Assembly (NCBI GenBank): GCA_951406725.2
Contig: OX597819.1
Location: 24,428,001 to 24,492,000, forward strand
Length of the DNA: 64,000 nt
DNA from: Octopus vulgaris
Taxonomy: Eukaryota
Reading direction: 5' to 3'
A program made the position numbers and the translations under genes. Below, piece after piece: positions 12,329-49,445 of this stretch. Below the pieces are notes generated by a model that did not search any database, was not told where the DNA came from, and was given only the letters and a program-made list of their open reading frames with translations. Each line of letters begins with the position of its first letter. Positions within the stretch are counted from its first letter, which is position 1.

Positions 12329-12419
<91 letters not shown>

Positions 12420-12610
12420 CAATATATAAAAGGGCTTAGTAAAATAAATTACTTTGCCGCATACTGAACTCATTAGAAATAGCAGCTAAAAAACTTTTTC
12501 AAAAACCATTTCTAATACTTAAAGAAAATCTCTCTCATATAGTGTTTGGTCAACTCAACTCACGAAAGTTTGGGGGTAAAGACATCAAAAAATCAAATGC
12601 AAAGGTTAGT

Positions 12611-12662
12611 TGAGAACGTACGTTTCAAGATTAGTCATCACAACACTTCTATCATCAGCTCA
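12611..12662 (-). ncRNA. Minimal hammerhead ribozyme motif (inverted copy)
   Basis: Reverse complement of 13147-13198. Confidence 0.65.
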
Positions 12663-13146
12663 GAAACTCCTTGGTTTGGATTTGAAAACACTGAAAGTGA
12701 GAGCATACTCTTTCGGCCTCTCATCGCTTTCGAAGATCTGCTCGTAACTAACAGTGCCTTAGCTGCTATTTCTAATGAGTTCAGTATGCGGCAAAGTAAT
12801 TTATTTTACTAAGCCCTTTTATATATTGTAATAATTTGAATTCGCCTTAAATGGTCCCTTTGCATACTGAACACTTGGTGAAATTAATTAATAATTAATT
12901 AATTTTACCCTCAATTGTTGAAATTATAATTAATCTCCCTCTAATTAATGCTTCAGATTTTACCGAAATAAGCAGAGTGTTTGTTGATTTTAACCCACGC
13001 TGGTGGAAAGGGGAGAGCAGAAATTCTTCGCTTGCATGTTTGAGTTTGTTGGCACTGTTAGTTACGAGCAGATCTTCGAAAGCGATGAGAGGCCGAAAGA
13101 GTATGCTCTCACTTTCAGTGTTTTCAAATCCAAACCAAGGAGTTTC

Positions 13147-13198
13147 TGAGCTGATGATAGAAGTGTTGTGATGACTAATCTTGAAACGTACGTTCTCA
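13147..13198 (+). ncRNA. Minimal type I hammerhead ribozyme motif
   Basis: tgag-CTGATGA-(helix II)-GAAAC-gtac-GTT-ctca; palindromic loop III; helix II weak. Confidence 0.65.
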
Positions 13199-13482
13199 AA
13201 TAACCTTTGCATTTGATTTTTTGATGTCTTTACCCCCAAACTTTCGTGAGTTGAGTTGACCAAACACTATATGAGAGAGATTTTCTTTAAGTATTAGAAA
13301 TGGTTTTTGAAAAAGTTTTTTAGCTGCTATTTCTAATGAGTTCAGTATGCGGCAAAGTAATTTATTTTACTAAGCCCTTTTATATATTGTAATAATTTGA
13401 ATTCGCCTTAAATGGTCTCTTTGCATACTGAACACTTGGTGAAATTAATTAATAATTAATTAATTTTACCCTCAATTGTGAA

Positions 13483-13489
<7 letters not shown>

Positions 13490-13537
<48 letters not shown>

Positions 13538-21952: not shown

Positions 21953-22660
21953 TCACAGTGGAGAACAGTATTCAAGGTGGGGTCGGGCAAAAGTGGAGAA
22001 GAGAAGGATGACGGTGTGGATATTTCTCCACTGGAAAGTTCTGAGAATCCAGGAACACATTCTGCGGGCCATGTCAGCTTTGGTGTTTATATGAGTGGCC
22101 CAGCTTATGTTGTTGTCCACAATTACTCCCAAGTCTCTGATGTTGTTGGATGTCACGAGAGTTTCACCTGAAGGAATGGAGTATGGGAGTTTCAGGGCAT
22201 CCTCTTTTCCAAAGTGGATTAACTCAAATTTATCCTCGTTCAGCAGCATATTGTTCTTTTCTGCCCATTGGATAACAGCCAGTAGATCTGACTGAAGGCA
22301 TGTCCGGTCACTCGCCTCATTTATGACCTTCTGTAGCTTGGAATCATCTGCAAAGATTTTTATGTTGCTGTGCTTGATGATGTCATTAATGTCATTAATG
22401 TAGATGATGAAAAGAAGTGGGCCCAGCACAGTGCCTTGCGGAACGCCACTACTGACTTTGGCTGGGCTTGATTTTACTCCTTCAACTACAACATGTTGAG
22501 ATCTGTCTGTCAAGAAACACTTGATGCATATCAGTAACTTTCCAGAGACACCAATGCTGGATAGCTTTTTCAGTAGGATCTTGTGATCAACCCTGTCGAA
22601 GGCTTTGCTGAAATCAAGGTAGATGACATCGGTGTTGGAGCCTTCTCCCAAAGCTCTCAA
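21953..22660 (-). pseudogene. LINE reverse transcriptase domain (partial, disrupted)
   Basis: YLDFSKAFDRVDH, SGVPQGTVLGPLLFIIYIND, FADD, IRDLGVIVD, RPHLEYCS. Confidence 0.93.
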
Positions 22661-22725
22661 AATGTCATCAAAGTGATGCAGGAGCTGCGTTAGGCAGTCC
22701 CTTCCATTACGTTAGACAGTCTCTT

Positions 22726-29567: not shown

Positions 29568-29572
<5 letters not shown>

Positions 29573-30592
29573 CTGTTCTCAGTATTTAAGGAAGCTGACA
29601 AATACAAACAAGAAATCATACCACAAAGAAGAAGAAGAAGATGATGAAGAAACAACAAAAGCTATAAAACAAATGAAATCCAAACTAAAAATAGAACAGC
29701 AACGAGCCATGATAAAACGATGGCAAGAAAAACCCCTTCATGGTAAATACTGCACTAAACTAAACGCAAAAGAAATAGACAAAGAAAAATCCCAGCAATG
29801 GTTGAGAAGCTCAGGACTCAAAGCAGAAACAGAGGGATTTTTAATTGCAGCACAAGACCAAATCCTCCCCACCAGAAATTACCAAAAACATGTAATGAAA
29901 AGAAATATTACAAGTAACTGCAGAATATGTGGAGATGGACAAGAAACAATAAATCATATTATCTCTGGCTGCCCAGTCCTGGCTAAGAAGGAATATATTC
30001 ACAGACATGACAGAGTTGGAACCTACATACATTGGAAGCTATGCCAACATTATGGAATAACAACAGAAAAAAGATGGTATAGGCACACACCAGAAAAGGT
30101 CACAGAAAACGAGAAAGCAACCATACTCTGGGATATGCCGATACACACAGATAGAGAAATTAAGGCCAACAGACCAGATATAGTTGTCAGAGATCATGAA
30201 GAAAAAAAAAGCTTTCTAATTGATGTATCAATACCGGCAGATGACAACGTGTCTCTAAAAGAAATGGAGAAACTCTCAAAATACAAAGACCTGGAAATAG
30301 AGGTAACTAGAATGTGGAACCTGAAAACAGAAACAATTCCTATCATAGTAGGTGCATTAGGCATAATAATAAAATATTCAGACAAATACATAACAAAAAC
30401 ACCAGGACTTACAAACACATATAACATATAGAAAATTGCACTACTAGGCACTGCACACATCCTACGCAGAACACTTTCCATACAATAACCATCAGAGCAT
30501 CACAACAAATCACAGCACATACCCAAGGCACACAGAGCTGCGCTCGGTAGTGAAGTGAAAGCACGCTATAAAAATAAAAATAAAACTACTGA
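29568..30592 (+). mobile_element. 5'-truncated R4/Dong-clade non-LTR retrotransposon in (TAA)n
   Basis: RLE-type ORF, 3' UTR, (TAA)n on both sides. Confidence 0.88.
29673..30431 (+). pseudogene. Zn-knuckle plus restriction-like endonuclease domain (premature stop near C-terminus)
   Basis: WQEKPLHG, TEGFLIAAQDQ, CRIC..ETINHIISGC, RHD, NRPDIV, IDVSIP, EKLSKY; TAG here is CAG in the copy at 37621. Confidence 0.9.
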
Positions 30593-49038: not shown

Positions 49039-49077
<39 letters not shown>

Positions 49078-49084
49078 ATAAATA

Positions 49085-49414
49085 TTAGGGAATGAATCCA
49101 AAATTACAGGGAAAAATCAGATTTAGGGTTAAATCCAATTTTATAGTAAAATATTATATAATATAATTCGAGACAAAACCACTATTTTAAAACCAAACAA
49201 GGAAAGACTTAATCAATACATAAAATTTTAATATAAATTAAATAAACCGCCACTACAATTGTTTCATGTCTGCTACCGACAATCTTCAGGTGGATTTTCG
49301 ATCTTCTAATCAGTATCATAATTGTAGTGGCGGTTTATTTAATTTATATTAAAATTTTATGTATTGATTAAGTCTTTCCTTGTTTGGTTTTAAAATAGTG
49401 GTTTTGTCTCGAAT

Positions 49415-49423
<9 letters not shown>
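49085..49423 (-). mobile_element. Fold-back Penelope-like remnant in (TA)n
   Basis: 49155-49260 inverted at 49320-49423; contains an intact HHR motif. Confidence 0.75.
49250..49293 (-). ncRNA. Minimal type I hammerhead ribozyme, intact core
   Basis: ccac-CTGAAGA-t-tgtc-ggtagca-gaca-t-GAAAC-aatt-GTA-gtgg. Confidence 0.8.

Positions 49424-49445
<22 letters not shown>

What the first reader, a model, noticed from the sequence alone, without database searches (positions are those of the whole stretch)
49250..49330. Best-preserved hammerhead; inversion breakpoint falls at its loop-III palindrome
Seen: canonical core, GUA cleavage triplet, CCAC/GTGG helix I and TGTC/GACA helix II. The inverted arm at 49320 starts with aattgtagtgg, i.e. 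at the AATT palindrome a few bases from the predicted cleavage site. Inference: ribozyme structure or cleavage may set the template-switch point during integration.
Basis: partly seen in the sequence, partly recalled or inferred. Interest (0 to 1): 0.7.

Follow-up and report, generated by a model that had tools for sequence, protein, structure and literature searches.

The report
Spliced, twice-copied Penelope end with hammerhead
This is a short head-to-head scrap of a Penelope-type jumping gene carrying a small hammerhead (self-cutting RNA) motif; its break at the loop palindrome is not a family habit, but sister copies pile up at the likely start of the spliced message and about 7 bases past the predicted cut site, which likely records how these elements copy themselves.

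Summary
The hammerhead motif (minus strand, 49293-49250) and the perfect 106-bp inverted arm starting at AATT (49320) are real. The locus is a 354-bp insertion in (TA)n of a Hydra-clade-like Penelope element (ORF-bearing relatives). The loop-III idea fails: 12 of about 498 arms genome-wide end there (Poisson p 0.08; 3 of 55 in an unbiased sample, p 0.5), most copies have non-palindromic ATTT (48 of 60), and the arm starts 7 nt upstream of the cut, so it is no cleavage product. The family test gave more: 5' ends cluster at an initiator-like site (36 of 38 spliced arms) and at +6..+8 past the predicted cut (24 of 55; 103 genome-wide); spliced junctions outnumber intron acceptors 303 to 98; 42 of 43 inverted pairs join one short and one long 3' end. 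Best reading: two reverse transcriptions, one from each end of a DNA break, run towards the 5' end of a sense RNA (spliced start, or hammerhead-cut end) and are joined. Cleavage is untested. The scan noted spliced copies and hammerhead-edge ends before in other genomes; I found neither in print (6 searches).

The parts
49072..49318 (-). Long arm: spliced pLTR copy, from 65 nt upstream of the predicted cut (11 nt inside the initiator-like start) to the long 3' end (+182)
   Evidence: alignment to a real spliced copy, L003
49303..49318 (-). Last 16 nt of 5' exon, joined directly to exon 2; the 1.26-1.33 kb GT..AG intron of sister copies is absent
49250..49293 (-). Minimal type I hammerhead motif: helix I CCAC/GTGG, CTGAAGA, helix II TGTC/GACA, GAAA, 2-bp helix III, loop III AATT, GTA triplet; predicted cut between 49254 and 49253
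   Evidence: sequence. Cleavage untested
49072..49154 (-). 83-nt tail between the short (+99) and long (+182) 3' ends; in ORF-bearing copies the sequence runs on to the ORF ATG at +234
49319..49319 (.). One extra base between the arms; without it the join would be a 4-nt AATT microhomology between exon 1 and loop III
   Evidence: junction against the antisense of exon 1; microhomology role inferred
49320..49425 (+). Short arm: inverted copy from loop III (-7) to the short 3' end (+99); no catalytic core
49041..49071 (.). (TA)n target, left flank (edge approximate; no target-site duplication can be read)
49426..49444 (.). (TA)n target, right flank (edge approximate)

Best explanation
The locus is a 354-bp head-to-head pair of end-repeat (pLTR) copies of a Penelope-like retroelement inserted in a TA microsatellite, likely made by two reverse transcriptions, one primed from each end of a DNA break, on the sense, spliced front end of the element's RNA and then joined. 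Steps: (1, shown) the long arm lacks an intron that sister copies carry; (2, inferred) transcription starts at an initiator-like TCACTTC 76-80 nt upstream of the hammerhead cut; (3, inferred from pairing statistics and from the in vitro work of PMC11167929) one enzyme starts at the short site, the other at the long site; (4, inferred) each cDNA runs towards the 5' end of its template and ends a few bases short of it, so that family breakpoints pile up at the RNA start and about 7 nt past the hammerhead cut (templates that were cut); (5, inferred) the two 3' ends are joined by end joining, often at short self-complementary words. In this copy the long arm ran to 11 nt from the RNA start on an uncut RNA and the short arm broke off or was trimmed at loop III, a minor class in which AATT served at most as a microhomology. 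Long copies keep the intron because they are likely primed in the downstream repeat of the RNA, where it is not spliced. This copy has no promoter and its hammerhead is predicted to be locked in the 106-bp hairpin.
For: ORF-bearing relatives with RT and GIY-YIG-type motifs follow the same tail (atlas neighbours with RVT_1). Splicing: exon1+GTATG in 24 copies, AG acceptor 1.26-1.33 kb on in 18 of 20 fetched; 303 spliced junctions against 98 acceptors. 36 of 38 spliced arms end at -76..-61; 1 of 303 carries the upstream GTTATT (the allele covers 14 of 20 donors), whereas 20 of 20 fetched donor-bearing copies run on upstream. 42 of 43 classifiable pairs have one short and one long end (p 5e-12); splice state agrees in 25 of 25 pairs; loop allele in 33 of 34. 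Peak at +6..+8: 24 of 55 (4% expected with simulated fillers), 103 genome-wide, often with stuttered repeats of the first bases. The arms of a pair share this fate: 3 mixed pairs seen, 18 expected (p 5e-5). 13 arms end at -2..0 (p 0.0008). A sister family shows a cluster at -3..+13 too (about 15 of 37 rows). Hairpin of this copy: -161 kcal/mol.
Against: No cleavage, RNA start or RNA end was measured; no run on record as RNA, contigs only. The main peak is 7 nt past the cut, not at it. PMC11167929 found uncut RNA the dominant substrate in vitro and no RNA reads ending at the cut. About 83% of arms that reach +7 read on (498 against 103). 48 of 60 copies have ATTT, which halves the predicted dimer helix III (-4.9 against -8.4 kcal/mol). 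The stop site in the sister family is homologous sequence, so distance from the cut and a slippery motif are not separated. A cap-derived extra G is clean in only 1 of 16 arms reaching -76. No spliced copy was seen in the sister family sample. Gene conversion could add to the agreement between arms.
Confidence: 0.6

Rival explanations
1. Same twin priming on spliced RNA, but the +7 peak is a stall of the enzyme at the folded, uncut hammerhead (helix I, which the spliced leader can extend to about +26).
For: Spliced RNA folds helix I with an extension over +4..+26 (duplex -13.7 against -8.7 kcal/mol unspliced, exon-1 shuffle p 0.02); 18 further ends lie in +9..+27; stutter fits a pause; fits the uncut substrate of PMC11167929.
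Against: Whole-fold z only -0.82; the sister family lacks the GC clamp yet stops at the same place; in five uneven pairs it is the long-primed arm that sits at +7 with the short-primed arm behind it, the reverse of a pile-up behind a stalled leader; a small excess sits at the cut itself.
Confidence: 0.22
2. The +7 peak has nothing to do with the ribozyme: it is a slippery TTTATTTA word at an AT-to-GC step where copying or end joining tends to end.
For: The motif is shared by both families; (TA)n targets favour AT-rich joins; stuttered fillers.
Against: Simulated fillers give 4%, not 44%; no peak at the similar GTGG/TTTT step at +75 or in the AT-only intron end (few arms); does not explain why both arms of a pair share the stop.
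Confidence: 0.1
3. One reading: the loop-III palindrome (dimer helix) or cleavage sets a template-switch point that makes the inversion.
For: This copy's arm starts exactly at AATT; 12 arms genome-wide end at -7..-3, 1.6 times background; among 7 of these with a readable partner allele 4 are AATT against 18% overall (small n, read by eye).
Against: Not significant (p 0.08 genome-wide, p 0.5 in sample); wrong side of the cut; minor allele; symmetric joins use other palindromes more often (the exon-1 TCAAAATTTGA word in 5 sample pairs); another hammerhead family in the window breaks about 100 nt from its core.
Confidence: 0.04
4. Self-priming on an antisense template, as proposed in PMC3846280 for head-to-head repeats and intron retention.
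For: Head-to-head geometry with palindromic joins; intron kept in long copies.
Against: 303 precisely spliced junctions in sense orientation ending at a sense initiator; one short plus one long end in 42 of 43 pairs; 12 pairs in which each arm holds sequence the other lacks.
Confidence: 0.04

Closest known systems
Hydra clade of C-terminal EN+ Penelope-like elements (Craig et al. 2021, PMC8557442; section 11, passages and supplement rows read)
   Same: DKT in place of DKG, CxCX5C linker, no CCHH between GIY and YIG, CxxC and CxH around the conserved E and N, (TA)n targets, hammerhead in the pLTR; matching motifs with Hydra-1_Obim seen by eye in the supplement.
   Different: A different family from Hydra-1_Obim (other hammerhead sequence); unit about 6 kb with long repetitive 3' UTR and 1.3-kb intron, against under 3 kb; KWK where RWK is described; Asn-rich insert; no tree was built.
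[quoted passage not shown]
   Same: 4-bp helix I, unpaired base 5' of helix II, short helix III with palindromic loop, intron end next to helix I as in D. virilis Penelope.
   Different: Palindromic loop only in the minor allele; helix II 4 bp flanked by U-U; genomic copies come in spliced and unspliced forms.
Inverted 5'-truncated pLTR plus tail at one end (PMC3846280 passages; PMC8557442 Fig. 2 legend)
   Same: Head-to-head pLTRs, tail on one arm only, palindromic or overlapping joins, initiator TCACT in the pLTR.
   Different: Tail 83 nt rather than 30-40; one-short-one-long rule counted here; sense spliced template rather than the antisense template proposed there.
Poseidon element of Anolis, PAc (Frangieh et al. 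2024, PMC11167929; parts 1-2 of 4 read)
   Same: Two internal reverse-transcription starts that bound the tail; both strands cut and extended; AT-rich targets; predicted dimer.
   Different: There the hammerhead overlaps the ORF start and cutting is dispensable in vitro; here the ORF starts 234 nt past the cut, both starts are TA-rich and could pair with the target, and genomic ends pile up just past the cut.
Twin priming of LINE-1 (recalled; no paper on it read)
   Same: Two primers from the two ends of a break give an inverted 5' part joined by microhomology.
   Different: Both starts are fixed sites, and both cDNAs often cover the same stretch up to the RNA start.

Membership tests
EN+ Penelope-like elements | Single ORF with RT and C-terminal GIY-YIG endonuclease | tested here: met
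   Relatives L139, L151, L138: RT motifs IQID..Y.SI, PMGAPDS, YRDDL; VY..YIG..RI.QH; atlas neighbours 0.93-0.98 with RVT_1 in part. Pfam itself gave no hit for this ORF. Each ORF seen is broken or incomplete. The window copy has no ORF.
EN+ Penelope-like elements | pLTR in partial tandem or inverted arrangement with a tail at one end | tested here: met
   L139 pLTR-ORF-pLTR; 45 inverted pairs in 71 sample loci.
EN+ Penelope-like elements | Intron retained in transposed copies | tested here: inconclusive
   Retained in 98 acceptor-bearing arms, including the ORF-bearing copies; absent in 303 arms and in this copy.
Hydra clade | DKT motif, CxCX5C linker, no CCHH, CxxC and CxH around E and N | tested here: met
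   SDKTRN; CTCRDKSKC, CYLC..E, LLN, CRH; one cysteine only between VY and YIG.
Hydra clade | RWK motif; length under 3 kb | tested here: not met
   RIKWK; repeat unit 6167 nt between acceptors in L139. Described as general traits, not strict ones.
Hydra clade | Placement in an RT tree | not tested
   Reference sequences were seen only in a paper supplement and were not aligned.
Neptune clade | CCHH motif and CX2-5CxxC linker | tested here: not met
   Both absent; my first label 'Neptune-like' was dropped.
Minimal type I hammerhead | CUGANGA, GAAA, NUH core with helices I and II | tested here: met
   Sequence; same core with other helices and loop GTAC in a sister family.
Minimal type I hammerhead | Palindromic loop III | tested here: inconclusive
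   Met in this copy (AATT) and in the sister family (GTAC); 48 of 60 sample arms have ATTT.
Minimal type I hammerhead | Self-cleavage | not testable with these tools
   Only indirect genomic hints.
Non-LTR retrozymes | Head-to-tail tandem units each with a hammerhead | tested here: not met
   Sample loci are solo arms or head-to-head pairs; definition from 10.64898/2026.07.22.740005, part 1 of 5 read.

The most novel reading that the evidence does not exclude
Penelope-like elements integrate by obligate twin priming: a dimer primes the two ends of a break at two fixed RNA sites on sense RNA; the stubs are fossils of RNA 5' ends, most of the spliced, capped leader and about a fifth of hammerhead-cut RNA, so the ribozyme cuts in the germ line (perhaps only after splicing completes helix I) and intron retention is a matter of position in the RNA, not of an antisense or unspliced template.
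Probability: 0.35. Interest if true: 0.72.

Novelty: new member of a known kind. Interest (0 to 1): 0.45.

Why it matters
This copy is inert debris, and hammerheads, inverted pLTRs and tails of Penelope-like elements are described. What the family adds bears on three points that the papers read leave open: how the inverted repeats form, why introns are retained, and whether the hammerhead cuts in vivo (PMC8557442, PMC3846280, PMC11167929). A young family of several hundred copies gives counts (42 of 43 pairs one-short-one-long; 303 spliced against 98 unspliced; a sharp peak 7 nt past the cut) that turn these into direct predictions for the existing in vitro system.

Tried and rejected
Rfam: no hammerhead hit. 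Pfam and PDB sequence searches did not name the ORF (a weak GIY-YIG hit, E 0.011, came from a neighbouring other element in L070). 'Neptune' label dropped. The first 40 loci (in part) were chosen for holding the whole hammerhead and were kept out of all breakpoint statistics except splice and allele concordance and the -76 check. Rows dropped: 10 duplicate loci and 7 hits to other families, simple repeats or side pieces (1 of them in the unbiased set). One search failed on a wrong reference boundary. Cap-G idea: 5 of 16 arms have G before the start, but 4 are explained by the partner arm. RNA: no RNA holder listed; contigs of four guessed-RNA runs cover the pLTR, none links exon 1 to the ORF, which is no evidence either way; no lay over the intron was obtained, so splicing is shown only from genomic copies. 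The extended helix I is not significant as a whole fold. Sister-family mapping is noisy (older copies; 37 rows from 88 loci, one false row, some arms missed by the anchor). Look-up of earlier findings by sequence gave nothing. The supplements of PMC11167929 (its Fig. S2 shows genomic coverage) and of the bioRxiv preprint were not seen and may bear on novelty.

Full report
Observation. The motif is on the minus strand: CCAC (49293), CTGAAGA, T, TGTC-GGTAGCA-GACA, T, GAAAC, AATT (49260-49257), GTA, GTGG (49253-49250). Positions below count from the first base after the predicted cut (0 = 49253). Arms 49155-49260 and 49320-49425 are perfectly complementary. Rfam does not report it, and the monomer hardly forms helices II and III, as described for minimal metazoan hammerheads, which cleave poorly and as dimers (PMC4209133, parts 1-2 read).

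What it belongs to. A 35-mer of the element has 704 exact matches in G000. Following copies that run on led to pLTR-ORF-pLTR units. [quoted passage not shown] The window holds only a 354-bp stub in (TA)n: a long arm from -65 to +182 (49318-49072, minus), one extra base, and a short arm from -7 to +99 (49320-49425, plus).

The stub is spliced. Upstream of -49 copies come in two forms. One has a T-rich stretch ending in AG; the other a 27-nt exon. The exon followed by GTATG exists in 24 copies, with the AG 1.26-1.33 kb further on in 18 of 20 fetched. Genome-wide there are 303 exact spliced junctions and 98 acceptors. The exon starts at TCACTTC, an initiator-like word (consensus recalled; PMC3846280 notes TCACT in a rotifer pLTR). 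Of 38 spliced arms in the unbiased sample 36 end at -76..-61; 1 of 303 carries the upstream GTTATT (allele present in 14 of 20 donors); 20 of 20 donor-bearing copies run on into the 3' UTR. So spliced copies stop at the likely RNA start and intron-bearing copies come from inside a longer RNA. This argues for a sense template, against the antisense model of PMC3846280, and makes intron retention a matter of position (inference).

I mapped the first 100 of the 704 hits in genome order: 71 loci, 120 arms. Of 55 ends between -48 and +55, 3 lie in loop III (-7..-3; p 0.5), 0 at -2..+5, 24 at +6..+8, 18 at +9..+27. Simulated uniform truncation with realistic flanks puts 4% at +6..+8 (p 2e-19). Whole-genome patterns agree: 498 arms span position 0; 12 end at -7..-3 (15 hits, 3 point mutants), 13 at -2..0 (17 hits, 3 mutants, 1 internal deletion), about 22 at +1..+6 (29 hits, 7 mutants or deletions), and 103 lack the G at +6 (not inspected one by one). 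Against 1.5 ends per base upstream, loop III gives p 0.08 and the cut site p 0.0008 (AT-rich flanks blur both windows). Loop III reads ATTT in 48, AATT in 11 of 60 arms. The window's short arm keeps 7 nt upstream of the cut and its long arm the whole ribozyme, so both were copied from uncut RNA. Its junction is one base away from an AATT microhomology with exon 1; joins of two same-sense cDNAs at self-complementary words recur (exon-1 TCAAAATTTGA in 5 sample pairs; CCGCGG and CCGG).

Two starts, one per arm. 3' ends fall in two classes, +99 and about +182, like the two internal starts shown in vitro for the Anolis element (PMC11167929, parts 1-2 read), which also cuts and extends both strands. 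Of 45 pairs, 42 have one of each, 1 has two short ends, 2 are unclassifiable (p 5e-12); solo arms are 12 long and 10 short. In 12 pairs the short-ended arm runs further 5' while its partner has the tail, so neither is a fold-back copy of the other. Splice state agrees in 25 of 25 pairs (both sample sets). I read this as twin priming by a dimer (inference).

The +7 peak. Arms there are often preceded by stuttered copies of TTTA. Both arms of a pair tend to stop there together (3 mixed pairs, 18 expected), which points to a property of the template. The peak at the RNA start has a similar shape: few ends at the very end, most 3-15 nt short. A sister family (719 hits; 88 loci fetched) has the same core, a long loop II, loop III GTAC and no GC run after the cut, and about 15 of 37 mapped ends lie at -3..+13, several with stutter. 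This favours run-off on a cut RNA over stalling at a GC helix, but the stop sequence is homologous in the two families, the spliced leader can extend helix I to +26 (whole-fold z -0.82), and PMC11167929 found no need for cleavage. I put cut template at about 0.6, stall at 0.22, motif alone at 0.1.

This copy. It lacks the promoter and start, and any read-through RNA is predicted to bury the cut site in the 106-bp hairpin (-161 kcal/mol). No long coding frame lies near it. RNA data were uninformative.

Known and new. Hammerheads in pLTRs, inverted pLTRs, one-sided tails and two RT starts are in print. Six paper searches and passages of five papers showed no report of mostly spliced genomic copies, of a one-short-one-long rule or of ends just past the cut; subscription papers and two sets of supplements were not seen. 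After forming this reading I found that the scan had noted spliced fold-back stubs and hammerhead-edge ends in other genomes; these are unchecked notes, not support. Verdict: real, a new member of a known kind, first interpretation wrong in place but right that the ribozyme region marks breakpoints; interest 0.45.

Noticed in passing
window 12415-13490: Insertion of another hammerhead-bearing family in (TA)n: 344-nt perfect inverted arms (12415-12758, 13051-13394), cores at 12658 (-) and 13151 (+), loop III GTAC, one short and one long end, plus an inner partial copy; breakpoints about 100 nt or more from the core.
   Followed up: partly
window 3486 (+) and 43453 (+): Two diverged hammerhead-like motifs, each with a T-rich AG acceptor-like site about 40-45 nt upstream of the core, as in the family studied.
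   Followed up: no
window 9062 (-), 19984 (-), 3877 (-): Further CTGANGA..GAAA motifs, not evaluated; some may be chance.
   Followed up: no
L139 and L151 ORFs: Poly-Asn / Asn-Lys insert between RT and endonuclease, like the Asn-rich inserts of rotifer Penelope ORFs (PMC3846280).
   Followed up: no
L120, L130, L132: The intron and the 3' UTR upstream of exon 1 are built from the same roughly 300-nt GT-rich repeat units.
   Followed up: no
L021:1388-1497, L011: A sister-family end sits directly upstream of, or beside, a copy of this family: the families insert next to each other or form chimeras.
   Followed up: partly
L166, L218: Spliced arms with an internal deletion that removes most of the hammerhead, rejoining at or near the cut site.
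   Followed up: no
L061: An arm that stutters at +7, then continues and ends exactly at the predicted cut.
   Followed up: no
L070:1561-2200 (-): 3' part of another Hydra-type ORF with its own hammerhead-like end, next to a stub of this family.
   Followed up: no
window 21953-22711 (-), 29568-30431 (+): Fragments of other non-LTR retroelement ORFs (family type recalled).
   Followed up: no
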